A stretch of DNA of 64,000 bases from assembly GCA_964514565.1 (NCBI GenBank), contig CAZERA010000001.1, positions 434,001 through 498,000 of the forward strand. The letters are read 5' to 3'. Numbering within the stretch: the first letter of the stretch is position 1; each line of letters opens with the position of its first letter. The position numbers were made by a program. Positions 18,001 to 24,000 of the stretch are shown piece by piece. Source of the DNA: an uncultured Candidatus Peribacteria bacterium (GTDB lineage Bacteria; Patescibacteriota; Gracilibacteria; RBG-16-42-10).

Positions 18001-21000
18001 TTGATTTTAACTAAATCTTTTTGAATTTGGCCGTAGATGTCCATCAGTTTGCCGACCTGAGTGTCTACTGTAAGCTCGGTGTCGAACCATAAAGATAAGC
18101 CTTTGTCTGTTTCGAAATGGATTTCTTTAGCCATGGGATGCCAAGTGGCTTGCGTAATTGTAAAGCCGATTTTCTCTTCCAATAATGCTTTACCTACTAT
18201 GAAGTATAAAATCTGATCTGGTGAGAAAAGCTGTTGATTGACATAGAAAGTCTCCAGTGTGGTCGTATCATCTGGTTTTACTAATACCTTGAAAAGGGGA
18301 CTGTCCAGGGTAGGCACAGTCTTTACTACTACGCCGTCTTCATTGACCAGGCCAAACATATCTTTGCCAGGCAGGGCTAGGACAATTGCTTTCTCGGCTA
18401 CATTTACTCGTACCGTCTCTGGGTAGATCATGTCTACCTGTACATCTTTGAGCCTAGGAATGGCACTGAAACCAAAATTACGAATGCTGTGTGATGTATA
18501 GAGCAAAATATTTTTGCCTACCAATGACTGAAAGGTTTGTTCTACTACGTGCTGATCGAGAGAGGTGATACTACTACTATTGGTGACGATCACTTCTTTG
18601 ATCTTGAAAAGAGGCGACAAGAAAAGCGTATAGCCTGCAATAGCTAGTGAAATCGATACCAAAACTAAACCAAAAACAAACTGTCGGGATTTGCGTTTGG
18701 CTGGATCACTTTTGGCGGCGCTATCAGTGACTTGCTTCAACTGATGCTTACGAAACAGTGAACTACGGGAAATTCTTTTTTGCGATTTTTTACGAGAAAA
18801 AAAAGCTTTCATGAATGAAGTGATTGCAAGTAAGACTCTAATATATACCCTGCTGCTGCGCTATCATCGTCGAAATTTTGACGTTGTTTCTTTTTGAGTC
18901 CTAGGGTCCAAACCAATTCTTTGGCTTGTTGGGTACTATTGTCCTCAGCAAAAAAGACCACCGGCATATTGCATTTCTTTTCAATTGCTTTGGCTAGTTT
19001 CTCACTAGCTAGGCGGACCTCTAGACTACTAGATCTGCCCATCACGATCATGCCTATTTTCTCTACCGCGATGAGTTGATTGAGTTTGTTGAATACCGTC
19101 TCAGTGTTGGGCAAGGCTTCACGAGCAAATACAAACGACTGAGTATCATCGCTAATAGCGGTGCCGATTTTGCTAAGTCCGAAATCAAGAGCGAGGAGCT
19201 TCATCTAATTGGTTTGTACTACTAAATTGATATTACTCTTGAGGCCAGGGATACTATTGACCCAAAATGGCCAGCTGCTTACTTTTGCTTCGGCTATAGA
19301 ATCAAGACTATTGAGGTATTTTTCTGTTTCAGCCAAGGTCATACCTGTGATCTGAGACTTGAGTCTGGTGAGGAAGTCAGGCTTAAACATATATTCTAAA
19401 CGATAGGGCATAGTAACATTGACCTTGATCTTTTGGGCTCGGGCATCTTGCTCTACATACTGTACTTCTAGATTGGAGTTGTCGACAAAGGCGATGCGCA
19501 TGTCTGGATTGATCATGCTGCTCAGTTTGCGATCCAAGATCTTCATAATATCTTTTTGATCAAAGGCTACTGTGCTTACTTTTACTTTGGCATAGGCTTG
19601 GAAACTATCTCGAACATCTTTTGGTTTTACATTCTCTAATATTTGGACCTGGATCACGGTAGTTTTTACTACTTTGTCATTTTCTAATAAAACCAATGAT
19701 TTGTTCTGGCTAGCGTTTTCTTGGCCGATTCGCTCCCGCAATTTGGTGATCGCGATCTTTTGGATCTCTACTACGATGTCTTTATTGGCACTATCAATAT
19801 CCTGATCAGCTACGGAACGGATTGCATTGGTCACGCCACCAGTAAAAGGTTGGTCATTGGTACCGTAGATGAGATTTTTATAGGTACCTTGTAGTGCTGG
19901 TAAGGTAAAGCGAAGATTAGCTGCTAAATTACCATTACTGCCGGTTACTTGGCCTTTGTCATCGACAGGGTCAGCTATTACCTGAGCATTGATAGTTCCT
20001 TTGGCTGGTACACTGACAGCAGCTTGGGTACGGAAAACATAACCATCTGGCGAACGGAAACGAGTACGAGCGATCAGAAGTTGTACTTGTTCACCATCAT
20101 TGTGAATAGTCATGGTTCCCTGGGCATTGGTGCCACTCGAGGTGATACCGGTGGTGCTGTAAGTTTTGGTGAGTTCCACTTCAGTGTCTACTGGCACGCT
20201 GCCGATCATATCACCGTTACTAAGTGCAATCTCGGCGCTATTTCTGGTGCTGTCGGCAATCGTAACTCTTTCCAATGGTTTCTCTACTTTAGTTTCTGGC
20301 GTGATGCGAATGGTCACCGTTGGTAGTACAAAATAGGCAATCAAGATAAATACAAAAGCTGATACGCCAAAAAATAGGCCGATGACGCGCTTGCCTGGGG
20401 CAGGCATCATAAAGGTCGTGCTATCAATCTTTTCGGTCATATTCATAGTCGACTTTTTGTGTTTTGGCTTTTTCTTCTCGTTTGGAGTTTCATTTTCTTT
20501 GCGAATCTCAGTGGGAAAACCAGTATTGGCCGCTAATGTCAGACCTGCTTCATTGCTGGAAGCAATCGTTAGTACCTTTTCTAAGACTATTGCTTCTTTG
20601 TAAAGTAGTTTCAAATGTATCTGACTTTGAAATAGTTTTGCTTGGGCAGGGATAATAAGTAAAAGCTCTTTCTCTTCGTGTTTCTTGATTCGTTCGAGAA
20701 TGCTCGTGACTTCTTCGTCTGAAGCGATAAAAAGTTGTTGGGAGTTGTCCATAGAAACCAAAGGTTAATTGCGCATAATTTTGAGGGTCTTGCGGAGTAA
20801 ACGGTCGATCAGCTTTTCTTCGCCTGCCAAATCCAAAGCCAGGTGAGCGAGGGCCAGTACCGTCACATCTTGAGGATCAGATAATTCACCAGTGTCGTCT
20901 GTGAAGGCGTCAATGTCGCTACAGCGTACTTTCATAATAGAGGGTTTGTCTAAGAAGTGAAGATCTTTAAACCATGATTCTTCTTCAAGCACTAGACTAA

Positions 21001-24000
21001 TCTGTGGTAGCAGGCTACCTCCTCCACAGAGATAAATATTGGCTGGGAGGGGAGTGTCTTGATTAAATTCTTCTAAAGTCAGTACTATGCCACTTCGCCA
21101 TACTTTGGCATCTTGGAGCAACATTTGCTTGAGCTTGGTCAGCTCACTTCTTTCTAAAGGCTTTTCTTCCAAACTAAGCTTGATTCGTTCAGCTTCATAA
21201 TAAGAGCAGTTTTGCAGTTGTTCGATCCGTTTGGTGACACCTTGCCCTCCTAGTGCGAACATCTTGGTCCCTTCTAATACACCATTGCGGACCACAGCAA
21301 TATCAGTAGTACCGCCACCAATATCAATAATAATGCCACTCCAGGTGTTGTTATTGGTGTCATTGAGCGCTTTGGCGATGCTATATGGTTCAGCTGTAAT
21401 TGCTAACAAGTCAAAGGCGAGAGCATCAGCAATGGTTCTCAAGCTACTAAAGTGAATCAGAGGAGCAAAAGCATTGAAGACACTGAGAGTAATATATTTG
21501 CCTTGGAATCCAAGTGGGTTGGCTACTGGAAAGCTATCGATGCTGACTTCTGTAATGGCAGCATTGATCAGCTTCACATCAATTTCCGGATAGCCTGTCT
21601 CAATCGAGAGTTGCTTGCGTACACGATCAAATGCCTTCCATTGTACTCGATGTACGATTTCTTTGAGTTCGGTCAGGCTTATAGGACTATGTGGATTGGG
21701 TCTTTCGTATTGAATAGTAGTACTAGCTCCTTTGACTAGTTCACCCCCGATACCCACAATCATTTGTTCGGGCTCGACATTGGCCATGATCATTGCTTCG
21801 TTGATCCCTTCATTACACTTCTCAGCTACGCGACTAATATTAATCACCGCACCACCATTCATGTCACCGTATTCTTGTTTGATATGAGAAATTCCGACGA
21901 TATGGACTTTGTGATCACGGTCATAGTGGGTACGAAAAATCACTGTCTTGATACATTCAGTACCAATATCTAGTGCGATAGCATATTCACCCCGCGCTTT
22001 TCTCTCCTCAAAAGCAACTGGTTGGCGTTTGGTATTTGCCCAAAATTTACGAAGTTTTTCAATCAAAACCATACATGCATATTAGGTGGGCATATCCTGA
22101 GGGATAGTATAGTACTTCAATAGATAATCACAGATTTTACTGAAGAGCGGACCAGCAGTTCCTTCGCCCCATTCGGAAGAAAGTGGTCTATTCATTTTTA
22201 CGATGATGGCAAAGTCAGGGTGTAGGGCTGGAAAACCGACGATAGAACCAATTGTACTACCAGGTCCTTTTTCATAACCCATACCATTTGGTAAAGCAAT
22301 TTGGGCAGTACCAGTTTTAGCTGCAATCACGTAGCCAGGAATTTTAACTGTGTTGGCATATGACTTTTGGGCCGTAGACACCATCATCGCCCGTACTTTT
22401 GCAGCTGTTTCTGGTTTGATCACGCGTCTAATTTCTTGCGGTAAAATCTCAGTAGTACGACCAGTGATTTTGTCAGTATAACTATCTATTAGGTGAGTTT
22501 TCATCAAAATGCCATCATTGGCGACTGTACCAATAGCAGTAATTACTTGCAGAGGTGTAGCACCTAAGCCTTGTCCAAAGGCCGCTGTGGCTAAATCGAT
22601 ATCTGCCCATTTTTCAGGAGCAGAAACCCAACCAGTTGATTGATTGTCTACCTCAATTGGATTTGGTGTACCAAAACCAAAGTTTCTAATGTACTGATAG
22701 AACAAGGTACGACCAAGCTTTTGAGCAACGGTTAAGGTCGTTAGATTACTTGATACCTCAAGGGCACGAGTCATAGTGATACAACCATAAGCCTTGAGAC
22801 TAGAATTGCGGATTGGATAATTATCAAGATAAATCGTATTTTCAGTCTCACAGTTGATGGAGTCAGGTGTGATTTCGCCACTATCGATACCCGCAGACAT
22901 GGTAATTACTTTGAATACTGAGCCTGGCTCATACATGTCAGAAACAGCACGGTTGAGAAAAGCTTGTGGACCAATTTTGTTTTTGTATTCACCAGCATGT
23001 ATACCTTCCTGCCATTTCTCATAGCTTTCCCAGTAGGTATTGGGATCAAAGGTGGGATAGTTGGCCATTGCGATCACCGCACCTGTTTTAGGATTGATCA
23101 CTACTACTTGGCCACTTTCTGCTTGGGCTGCTTTTACTTGTTTTGCTAATTCATCTTCCACGAACTTCTGCACAACGCGATCGATGGTCAAAGTAATGTC
23201 AGTACCATCTTGGGCTGGTGTGACAATCTTGTCTCCTACTACGATTTGGTTTCCCTGAGGATCACGATCGATGAGCAGTTTGCCATTGATACCAGCTAGC
23301 TTGATATTATTGTTCATATCCTCAAATTGACTTTCCAATCCATACTGACCCTTTTTATCATTGCCAATAAACCCGACAATTTGAGCAGCTAAACTACCCT
23401 CTGGATAATAACGCCATTGCTCAGGGATGATACCGACGCCAGGTAGGCGTTTGCCGTTTTTTAGCCGTAAGTTTTTAATTTTATCTGATGTCTCTGGTTC
23501 TAGCTTGTGCTTGAGTGGGACATAACGAATTGGGGTCCTTGTCAGCATCTTGATCAAGGTAGGACGAGGCAGGTCAAAGAAACTACTGATTTCACCGGCA
23601 ATCTGGGCAGGATTATCAATAATAGTAGGATCACAGTAAATCTCATCTTCACTAGTATATATACCACGAATATTGAGAGCATCTATTTTTTGACGAAGGT
23701 CAGGCGTCTTTTCTTTGAAGTCTTTGATCAATGTGCGATGCGTGACCTCTTTCTTTTGCAATTTTTTGAGAATGCTATCTTTGTACGCACCTAGCAGAGT
23801 TTCATATGTTTCTTTTACTTCTACCTGTGGCTTGAGGATTGGAATGCTATTGGCTACTTCCTCGACTGGAACACCTGTTTCATCCAATGCAGCATCGGTA
23901 GTTTGAGTCTCTTGCAGCAAAGCCTTCTCACTCTCTTGATCAGTCGGCATCTCAAATAACAAGGGGGCTAGTAAATCTACAATCTCAGTATCGTTTTCAT

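What a model noticed while it worked through the whole genome (the two positions that open the first line are those of the whole stretch)
19205..22072. Phylum-wide second FtsA-like actin ATPase paired with a membrane-anchored phage-baseplate-like protein
Inside the mraW-ftsL-PBP cluster, g00400 encodes a second FtsA-like actin-fold ATPase, distinct from the true FtsA beside ftsZ, followed by g00399: a small N-terminal domain, a linker, one membrane helix and an outer part related to phage baseplate wedge proteins. The pair is conserved across Patescibacteria with no other phage genes, pointing to a domesticated envelope or division module.
Evidence so far: g00400 homologs at E<=1e-25 in 69 of 101 phylum genomes, up to 51% identity, while canonical FtsA is separately present in 101 of 101. 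g00399 homologs in 83 of 101. Adjacent and co-directional in 54 of 65 genomes with a strong g00400 ortholog. Baseplate link: PHROG 6 E 3.9e-6, Pfam PF04865 on close homologs, Foldseek hits to A-1(L), phi812, Mu and diffocin baseplates, E 3e-6 to 2e-4; model shows helix 121-141 before the beta-rich part. ATP motifs LDIGT and DIGGGT intact; pN/pS 0.06 and 0.13; 2632 cluster representatives at E<=1e-10.
(Added by a program. Inside this text positions count along the whole contig: contig position 434,001 is position 1 of the stretch shown here. "Call 12" and the like, gene names such as g00115 and contig names such as C1 are that model's own, and its searches are not shown. The text may have been shortened before it was handed on; [...] marks where a part breaks off. 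The agent that wrote the report below was given it as the finding of a first reader that could run no searches.)

Follow-up and report, generated by a model that had tools for sequence, protein, structure and literature searches.

The report
Extra FtsA-like actin with membrane partner
Ultra-small Patescibacteria, and also Chloroflexota and some Bacillota, keep an unstudied gene pair: a second FtsA-like actin protein that has lost the signs of FtsZ binding, and a single-pass membrane protein whose outer part shares domains with phage baseplate proteins; together they probably link the cell interior to the envelope.

Summary
(1) It is not Patescibacteria-specific. The membrane protein (BPL) matches in 97/101 Patescibacteria, 56/81 Chloroflexota and 12/61 genomes of a Bacillota-labelled phylum. 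Its usual slot is alaS-[ftsA2]-bpl-ruvX-mltG; the mraW-ftsL-PBP setting is local. (2) FtsA2 is not a divisome FtsA. It keeps the ATP motifs, the 1C domain and a C-terminal amphipathic helix, but lacks R300 (0/58 vs 27/27) and has a PilM-length 2B subdomain. (3) The baseplate likeness is partial, and the shared barrel matches Streptomyces GlxA domain 2 at least as well. In 30/30 ORFs examined from one Patescibacteria order, a motif-less FtsA2 core is fused to the membrane helix in place of BPL's N-domain, as in GspL versus PilM+PilN. Ktedonobacter attaches the ectodomain to Ser/Thr kinases. Published Southlakia Tn-seq calls the syntenic BPL essential (polarity on ruvX not excluded) and FtsA2 growth-defective. 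Best reading: a PilM-PilN-like transmembrane envelope scaffold with BPL as the core. Binding is inferred, not shown. No paper on the pair was found; this scan noted it before in at least 33 other genomes.

The parts
20765..22072 (-). ftsA2 (g00400): 435-aa FtsA/PilM-clade actin-fold protein
   Evidence: PF14450 E 5.5e-17; TIGR01174 90 bits vs cut-off 176; profile's best PDB hits are FtsA 7q6f/7q6g/7q6d, E 4e-31 to 3.5e-27
21959..21973 (-). phosphate-1 motif, residues 34-38
   Evidence: D35, G37, T38 conserved in >=90% of 74 sequences
21473..21745 (-). 1C (SHS2-type) subdomain, about residues 110-200, with a 14-residue family-specific insertion
   Evidence: collinear with FtsA 1C in the HMM-to-PDB alignment and in the multiple alignment
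21389..21391 (-). E228, at the column where MreB has Glu; its catalytic role is recalled, not tested
   Evidence: Glu in 42/58 FtsA2; not among the five commonest residues (25 of 27 rows) of canonical FtsA
21305..21325 (-). phosphate-2 motif, residues 250-256
   Evidence: D250 invariant; G252, G253, T255, T256 >=90%
21023..21181 (-). short 2B subdomain lacking the S12-S13 hairpin and R300/E303
   Evidence: segment length 49-58 aa in 58 FtsA2, 67-94 in 27 FtsA, 49-52 in 6 PilM-type; R300 0/58 vs 27/27
20942..20974 (-). family signature W-x(n)-L-x-F-x3-P, residues 367-377
   Evidence: 70/74 FtsA2, 21/26 fused cores, 0/27 FtsA, 0/6 PilM-type
20771..20803 (-). C-terminal amphipathic helix (putative membrane-targeting), residues 424-434
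   Evidence: hydrophobic moment 0.94 vs background median 0.42, 90th percentile 0.61; E. coli FtsA 0.78
19205..20752 (-). bpl (g00399): 515-aa single-pass membrane protein
   Evidence: AF2 mean pLDDT 93, pTM 0.65; one TM in 157/165 homologues, positive charge on the N-terminal side in 135/160
20498..20743 (-). cytoplasmic alpha/beta N-domain, residues 4-85, STAS/MinC-N-like topology
   Evidence: model pLDDT 92; MinC-N Z 6.4 rmsd 2.9 over 80, STAS Z 5.5-6.2, unrelated alpha/beta folds up to Z 7.3: suggestive only
20393..20488 (-). disordered, basic, variable-length linker
   Evidence: pLDDT <50 at 90-115; pN/pS 0.30
20327..20392 (-). transmembrane helix, residues 121-142
19835..20134 (-). outer beta-barrel, residues 207-306, shared with baseplate J/gp47 and GlxA domain 2
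   Evidence: GlxA Z 14.1 rmsd 1.7 over 91, 28% id; baseplate chains Z 8-12.5; PHROG 6
19208..19387 (-). C-terminal domain with conserved WPFW, approximately residues 456-515; aligns with the baseplate J C-terminal domain
   Evidence: baseplate alignments of ~150 residues span 204-515 with rmsd 20-35 A, read as two separately matching pieces; W494, P495, P502 >=90%
18809..19204 (-). ruvX/yqgF, abutting bpl; part of the usual slot
   Evidence: PF03652 E 1e-20
17955..18812 (-). ftsQ/divIB-like gene (local neighbour)
   Evidence: POTRA_1 E 0.0019, FtsQ E 3.4e-6
22082..25591 (-). mraW, ftsL-like gene and PBP (local neighbours in this lineage)
   Evidence: PBP upstream in 3 of 80 loci

Best explanation
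The two proteins form a transmembrane envelope scaffold built like PilM-PilN or FtsA-FtsN but separate from both the FtsZ ring and the pilus. BPL is the core: its elongated outer part (barrel, SHS2-like middle, C-terminal domain) binds a wall or surface polymer or an envelope enzyme outside the membrane. [quoted passage not shown] Shown: domain anatomy, topology prediction, motif presence and loss, distribution, gene order, fusion. Inferred: direct binding, ATP hydrolysis, filament formation, the outer ligand, and the process served (wall remodelling or surface-protein anchoring).
For: FtsA2 rarely occurs without BPL: adjacent in 69/74 Patescibacteria, 24/24 Chloroflexota (20 fetched; 4 from coordinates), 71/77 motif loci with room to tell; where the pair is split, 5/5 genomes tested keep a full BPL elsewhere. 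Fusion: the N-terminal domain matches in 41/41 genomes of the order of G003; 30/30 ORFs examined join it to TM and ectodomain with no N-domain hit. That domain is homologous to FtsA2 (hhalign 98%, E 1.2e-13) but lacks 1C, 2B and the C-terminal helix and both phosphate motifs (0/26). N-domain and FtsA2 co-occur across 97 Patescibacteria: both 69, N-domain only 6, FtsA2 only 5, neither 17 (approximate, kin not independent). Precedent: PilM and FtsA both bind bitopic partners in the IA-IC cleft (10.1101/2021.11.08.467742, passages); PilMN corresponds to GspL (PMC4471445, passages). Envelope clues: mltG downstream in 16/20 Chloroflexota and 8/12 Bacillota-labelled loci; sortase beside the fused gene and beside unpaired FtsA2; ectodomain on 2 Ser/Thr kinases in Ktedonobacter; barrel shared with extracellular GlxA; BPL with mraY in 42/54 vs 11/27 BPL-negative Chloroflexota. 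In Southlakia the syntenic BPL is called essential at both later passages, and FtsA2 growth-defective at the last (PMC10633639 supplement rows).
Against: BPL often stands without FtsA2: 30/54 BPL-positive Chloroflexota and 10/12 Bacillota-labelled neighbourhoods, many still with the N-domain, so that domain must have another partner or role there. 12/54 BPL-positive Chloroflexota had no mraY over the cut-off. mltG itself is non-essential in Southlakia, while ruvX, which overlaps the end of bpl, is essential, so the BPL phenotype may be polar. mnmA, upstream of essential alaS, shows the same read decline as FtsA2 (2617/854/250 vs 2427/660/221). alaS and ruvX are not envelope genes, so the slot may be inherited linkage. 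One Patescibacteria family has neither gene (0/4) although FtsA is detected there.
Confidence: 0.55

Rival explanations
1. Accessory division regulator: BPL's N-domain acts like MinC-N on FtsZ or canonical FtsA, and FtsA2 co-assembles with or caps FtsA filaments through its 1C domain, tuning where or when small cells divide or bud.
For: 1C and the C-terminal helix are kept; MinC-N is among the best whole-domain matches for the N-domain, Z 6.4; the N-domain persists without FtsA2 while FtsA is present in 101/101 and 79/81 genomes; in this lineage the pair lies between PBP and ftsQ.
Against: R300 0/58, E303 lost, S12-S13 absent; the fused form drops 1C and the N-domain altogether; the dcw setting occurs in 3/80 loci; Z 6.4 is within the background range.
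Confidence: 0.2
2. Signal receptor: the ectodomain senses a wall fragment or surface contact and signals through the STAS-like domain, with FtsA2 as an ATP-dependent switch, possibly acting on the co-transcribed alaS/ruvX functions.
For: Same ectodomain on Ser/Thr kinases, with up to 15 matches in one Ktedonobacter genome; STAS domains recur among the fold matches; DPAM labels the Southlakia N-domain SpoIIaa-like; S43 conserved in 84%.
Against: Kinase fusions were seen only in Ktedonobacter paralogues; the fused pseudo-ATPase form and the N-domain-less second copy between dnaE and thrS (8/8 loci examined) lack the STAS-like domain; no conserved regulator neighbour was seen.
Confidence: 0.12
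3. Domesticated baseplate wedge that still oligomerises into a ring-like surface platform, used for host attachment or as a base for pili or secretion, organised from inside by FtsA2.
For: Barrel and C-terminal domain match baseplate J in order; essential call and 'Patescibacteria-enriched' flag in an epibiont; FtsA2 groups with PilM in the tree, SH-like 0.979.
Against: Alignments start at residue ~70-120 of the phage proteins, so their N-terminal region is not matched; the middle domain best matches BP26, G3P and SHS2 folds (Z 6.4-7.5); the gene is also in free-living Chloroflexota and Bacillota-labelled genomes; true pilM genes exist separately; the PilM grouping may be long-branch attraction.
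Confidence: 0.1
4. Decaying prophage or injection-system remnant, or mere chance neighbours.
For: Pfam and PHROG baseplate labels.
Against: Fixed housekeeping slot in three phyla, purifying selection, TM anchor, fusion; no tblastn match in 50,697 phage records at E<=1; none in IMG/VR by two narrow pattern scans.
Confidence: 0.03

Closest known systems
PilM-PilN and its fused counterpart GspL/EpsL
   Same: Actin fold with 1C and short 2B beside a bitopic partner; a natural fusion of a motif-less actin core to TM plus ectodomain; FtsA2 sister to PilM in the tree.
   Different: Below PilM cut-offs; has a C-terminal amphipathic helix (moment >=0.7 in 0/6 PilM-type); the partner has a folded 82-aa N-domain and a baseplate/GlxA-type ectodomain, not a short tail and ferredoxin-like fold; not in pilus loci; the fused core loses 1C.
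FtsA with FtsZ and FtsN (TIGR01174; PDB 7q6f, 7q6i, 4a2a)
   Same: Best sequence matches, 1C subdomain, ATP motifs, C-terminal amphipathic helix.
   Different: No R300/E303, no S12-S13, a 14-aa 1C insertion, Glu at 228, own W..L.F...P signature; a separate clade; not beside ftsZ; coexists with true FtsA.
Baseplate J / Mu gp47 / T4 gp6 wedge proteins (PF04865, PHROG 6)
   Same: Beta-barrel and C-terminal domain in the same order (Z 8-12.5).
   Different: Membrane-anchored; N-terminal region replaced; different middle domain; no tail genes nearby; sequence match limited to ~100 residues.
Streptomyces GlxA domain 2
   Same: Top structural match of the barrel (Z 14.1, rmsd 1.7, 28% id); extracellular part of a membrane-anchored envelope protein (PMC11022532, passages).
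   Different: BPL has no propeller or copper-oxidase domains; the role of GlxA domain 2 was not stated in the passages read.
MreB-RodZ/MreC
   Same: Membrane-bound actin with a bitopic adaptor; Glu at the same column.
   Different: FtsA2 has 1C rather than MreB's layout; this genome has two MreB-like genes elsewhere.

Membership tests
FtsA (divisome) | Actin fold with phosphate-1 and phosphate-2 motifs | tested here: met
   73/74 for each motif
FtsA (divisome) | 1C/SHS2 subdomain | tested here: met
   collinear with FtsA 1C, plus a 14-aa insertion; no structure of FtsA2 was predicted
FtsA (divisome) | C-terminal amphipathic helix | tested here: met
   moment 0.94; family medians 0.68-0.75 vs 0.72 in FtsA
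FtsA (divisome) | TIGR01174 score over cut-off | tested here: not met
   90.3 vs 175.85 bits
FtsA (divisome) | FtsZ-tail residues R300/E303 (role recalled from memory; E. coli numbering from L338) | tested here: not met
   R 0/58 (D 32, E 9) vs 27/27; E303 replaced by V/I/T/L vs E 25/27
FtsA (divisome) | S12-S13 hairpin in 2B | tested here: not met
   segment ~19 aa shorter; linked to FtsZ interaction in PMC4281207 passages; I recall that deleting it alone can be tolerated in E. coli
FtsA (divisome) | Binds FtsZ, polymerises, localises to the septum | not testable with these tools
   needs experiment
PilM | Family score over cut-off | tested here: not met
   PF11104 24.1 vs 27; TIGR01175 26.6 vs 133
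PilM | Short 2B with 1C present | tested here: met
   49-58 aa vs 49-52 in PilM-type
PilM | Followed by pilN/pilO in a pilus locus | tested here: not met
   followed by bpl in 69/74 genomes; Southlakia has a separate pilM, SEML1_0104
MreB/Mbl | Family score; no 1C | tested here: not met
   PF06723 24.5 vs 27; 1C present
Baseplate J/gp47 wedge | Beta-barrel domain | tested here: met
   PF04865 over cut-off in 8 of 14 ectodomain-bearing homologues scanned, not in P0002 itself; PHROG 6 in 4 of 8
Baseplate J/gp47 wedge | C-terminal gp6-like domain | tested here: inconclusive
   aligned within two-piece matches but not scored alone; DPAM assigns it in SEML1_0655
Baseplate J/gp47 wedge | Soluble, full-length wedge subunit with its N-terminal region | tested here: not met
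   N-domain, linker and TM instead; target ranges start at residue ~70-120
Baseplate J/gp47 wedge | Encoded among tail or injection-system genes | tested here: not met
   neighbours identified by BLAST to this genome's ORFs are housekeeping or envelope genes; unlabelled ORFs in those loci were not scanned against PHROGs
STAS/SpoIIAA or MinC-N domain | Fold of the cytoplasmic N-domain | tested here: inconclusive
   MinC-N Z 6.4, STAS Z 5.5-6.2, best overall 7.3, none >=8; no Foldseek match at E<=0.001

The most novel reading that the evidence does not exclude
An ancient, undescribed actin-based system, present in the common ancestor of Chloroflexota and Patescibacteria and perhaps earlier, in which a baseplate-derived ectodomain was recruited as the outer arm of a transmembrane scaffold. 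In Patescibacteria it became near-universal and truly essential, building the host-contact or budding site, and one lineage repeated the PilM+PilN-to-GspL fusion.
Probability: 0.2. Interest if true: 0.9.

Novelty: new variant of a known kind. Interest (0 to 1): 0.68.

Why it matters
It would add a family to the short list of characterised bacterial actins (PMC12645912 passages count five) and name a near-universal Patescibacteria membrane protein that databases mislabel as 'baseplate J' beside 'PilM'. How these ultra-small epibionts build their envelope, divide and contact hosts is open. The genes exist in a genetically tractable strain (Southlakia, SEML1_0655/0656, orthology inferred from gene order, size and domain labels) and in cultured Chloroflexota (Ktedonobacter: both genes; Herpetosiphon, Longilinea, Leptolinea: bpl only in the loci fetched), so the question can be tested directly.

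Tried and rejected
Inter-protein covariation on 163 paired sequences (effective ~94) gave a top z of 6.18 against shuffled maxima of 4.97-6.31: no signal; the mirror-tree r of 0.88 is expected from shared descent and is not used. Word-based protein searches returned only 17-18 close hits and an exact look-up of 10 homologues gave one name, 'hypothetical protein'. An N-domain profile found nothing in the PDB by sequence (best E 0.33). Atlas hits for the N-domain were 0.83-0.85, leads only. 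The 389-395-aa ORFs between alaS and bpl in G015, G043 and G068 were considered as degenerate FtsA2 and rejected: no profile match, and they look like phosphoglucose isomerase by eye. BPL was not found in 41 genomes of the phylum of G188 (record title Bryobacteraceae; no positive control inside that call), nor in G187-G190 or G104. Actinomycetota, Cyanobacteriota, Armatimonadota and Deinococcota were not searched. FtsA2 was not searched across all 61 Bacillota-labelled genomes, only 5 genomes and 12 neighbourhoods. A weak N-terminal amphipathic stretch in FtsA2 (moment 0.61, at the 90th background percentile) is not claimed. The tree (FastTree, 97 sequences, 380 columns; a subset of about a quarter of the close Gracilibacteria-type rows was kept) nests Chloroflexota and Bacillota FtsA2 inside Patescibacteria ones, but long branches make root and donor unreadable. 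Literature searches for the pair found no paper on it; the library lacks most subscription papers, and the supplements of PMC6744442, which may list these families, were not read.

Full report
Observation. FtsA2 (P0001, 435 aa, 20765-22072, minus) is followed after 12 nt by BPL (P0002, 515 aa, 19205-20752), whose stop abuts the ruvX start. The closest named relatives are Abawacabacteria and Gracilibacteria records. Canonical ftsA-ftsZ lies about 34 kb away.

Distribution. A 141-sequence BPL profile matches 97/101 Patescibacteria genomes; the 4 misses are one family. A 12-sequence FtsA2 profile gives 73/101 at E<=1e-25, 74 with G053, and 69/74 are adjacent and co-directional. In the phylum of G101 (Longilinea) BPL matches 56/81, two of them weakly; FtsA2 matches 24/81, always beside BPL; canonical FtsA matches 79/81. 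In the phylum of G186 (record title Bacillota) BPL matches 12/61, and 2 of those 12 neighbourhoods hold FtsA2. BPL was not found in 41 genomes of an Acidobacteriota-labelled phylum.

Gene order. A PBP lies upstream in 3 of 80 related loci and ftsQ downstream in 5. The recurring order is alaS-[ftsA2]-bpl-ruvX-mltG: alaS upstream in 15/20 and mltG downstream in 16/20 Chloroflexota loci, 10/12 and 8/12 Bacillota-labelled loci, and in many Patescibacteria loci. The dcw setting here is therefore a local rearrangement and weak evidence for division.

FtsA2 anatomy. The profile's best solved relatives are FtsA (E 4e-31), then PilM (5e-23). Both phosphate motifs are present in 73/74 sequences. The 1C subdomain is kept with a 14-residue insertion. 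The stretch from the AExxK helix to the GGG motif is 49-58 aa in 58 FtsA2, 67-94 in 27 FtsA and 49-52 in 6 PilM-type proteins, so the S12-S13 hairpin is missing. R300 is present in 27/27 FtsA and 0/58 FtsA2, mostly replaced by Asp or Glu; its role in FtsZ-tail binding is recalled, while PMC4281207 (passages) ties S12-S13 to FtsZ interaction. Position 228 is Glu in 42/58, as in MreB. The C-terminus is a strong amphipathic helix. A W..L.F...P signature marks the family (70/74; 0/27 FtsA). In a FastTree tree FtsA2 is one clade (SH-like 0.94), apart from FtsA (0.99) and sister to PilM (0.98), with long-branch caveats.

BPL anatomy. The model (pLDDT 93, pTM 0.65) shows an 82-residue alpha/beta N-domain, a disordered linker, one helix at 121-142 and a multi-domain beta-rich outer part. 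Charge bias puts the N-terminus inside in 135/160 homologues. The barrel at 207-306 matches GlxA domain 2 (Z 14.1, rmsd 1.7) and baseplate J proteins (Z 8-12.5). Many baseplate alignments also reach the C-terminal domain, with large rmsd, so two domains match in order but not as one rigid body. The middle part resembles BP26, G3P and SHS2 folds at Z 6.4-7.5. The N-domain resembles MinC-N and STAS domains at Z 5.5-6.4, not above unrelated folds. No phage record gave a tblastn match and two narrow IMG/VR scans were empty.

Natural variants. In the order of G003 the N-terminal domain matched in 41/41 genomes, and 30/30 ORFs examined carry it fused to TM and ectodomain with no N-domain. It is homologous to FtsA2 (98%, E 1.2e-13) but lacks 1C, 2B, both phosphate motifs and the membrane helix, while keeping the family signature in 21/26. 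G083, from another family, has a similar long N-terminus with only a weak score (E 0.24). This parallels GspL versus PilM+PilN (PMC4471445, passages). A sortase follows the fused gene. Many genomes have a second, N-domain-less copy near dnaE and thrS (8/8 examined). Ktedonobacter racemifer has 15 matches, two of three tandem copies carrying Ser/Thr kinase domains. N-domain and FtsA2 co-occur in 69, differ in 11 and are both absent in 17 of 97 genomes; the table is approximate, since G039 has an adjacent FtsA2 under the threshold and G017 has an N-domain found later.

Published data. PMC10633639 (main-text passages; rows of two supplement tables) lists in Southlakia epibionticum the run mnmA, alaS, SEML1_0656 ('PilM', ProtNLM 'FtsA domain', 1284 bp), SEML1_0655 ('baseplate J/gp47', 1671 bp), ruvX, mltG. 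Both middle genes are flagged Patescibacteria-enriched. 0655 is called NE, ES, ES (reads 373, 34, 24) and 0656 NE, NE, GD (2427, 660, 221). The main text has no occurrence of 'FtsA', 'baseplate' or 'MltG'. Orthology is inferred from order, size and domain labels, which match Saccharibacteria loci here; the sequences were not compared. Polarity on essential ruvX is not excluded.

Mechanism. The best reading (0.55) is a PilM-PilN-like transmembrane scaffold: BPL as the conserved core with an outer binding arm, FtsA2 as a membrane-bound ATP-binding organiser docked on the N-domain, and the fusion as a fixed version of that contact. Against it, BPL often occurs alone with its N-domain, and 12/54 BPL-positive Chloroflexota had no mraY over the cut-off. 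Rivals are a division regulator (0.2), a signal receptor (0.12), a ring-forming attachment platform (0.1) and a phage remnant (0.03).

Novelty. The architecture has precedents, so this is a new variant of a known kind, but both families fail membership of FtsA, PilM, MreB and baseplate J. Six literature searches found no paper on the pair. This scan holds 33 earlier notes on it from other genomes; they are unchecked AI notes and not independent support. My distribution, gene-order and fusion results were obtained before reading them; the sortase check followed a lead from one.

Noticed in passing
window 5511-17327 (-): 3938-aa ORF with no Pfam match at E<=0.001, low-complexity Pro/Ala/Thr/Gly stretches; relatives only partly conserved in L001-L003 (52%, 24%, 54%). 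Possible giant surface protein, directly downstream of ftsQ and a 114-aa ORF.
   Followed up: partly
window 534-5453 (-): 1639-aa protein with a signal-like N-terminus and one DUF11 domain.
   Followed up: partly
window 55238-64000 (-): At least five similar ~555-aa ORFs with Cys-x2-Cys motifs in tandem; the first has no Pfam match.
   Followed up: partly
L276 (G103:C10:794000-812000): Three tandem Ktedonobacter genes carry the BPL ectodomain; two have N-terminal Ser/Thr kinase domains. Four other Chloroflexota genomes have 7-10 matches.
   Followed up: partly
L540-L547: A second BPL copy without the N-domain sits after dnaE, and before thrS in 7 of 8 loci.
   Followed up: partly
family f10 (G007, G035, G060, G084): The only sampled Patescibacteria family lacking both genes (0/4; 85-93% complete) while FtsA is found.
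   Followed up: no
L318-L328: In most Bacillota-labelled loci an aldo/keto reductase with 4Fe-4S motifs lies between bpl and ruvX.
   Followed up: partly
G126, G138, G157, G166: Small Chloroflexota genomes without mraY or bpl hits carry two full-length canonical-type ftsA copies.
   Followed up: no
L004-L024: In one Gracilibacteria group FtsA2 is separated from bpl and is usually followed by a convergent sortase gene.
   Followed up: partly
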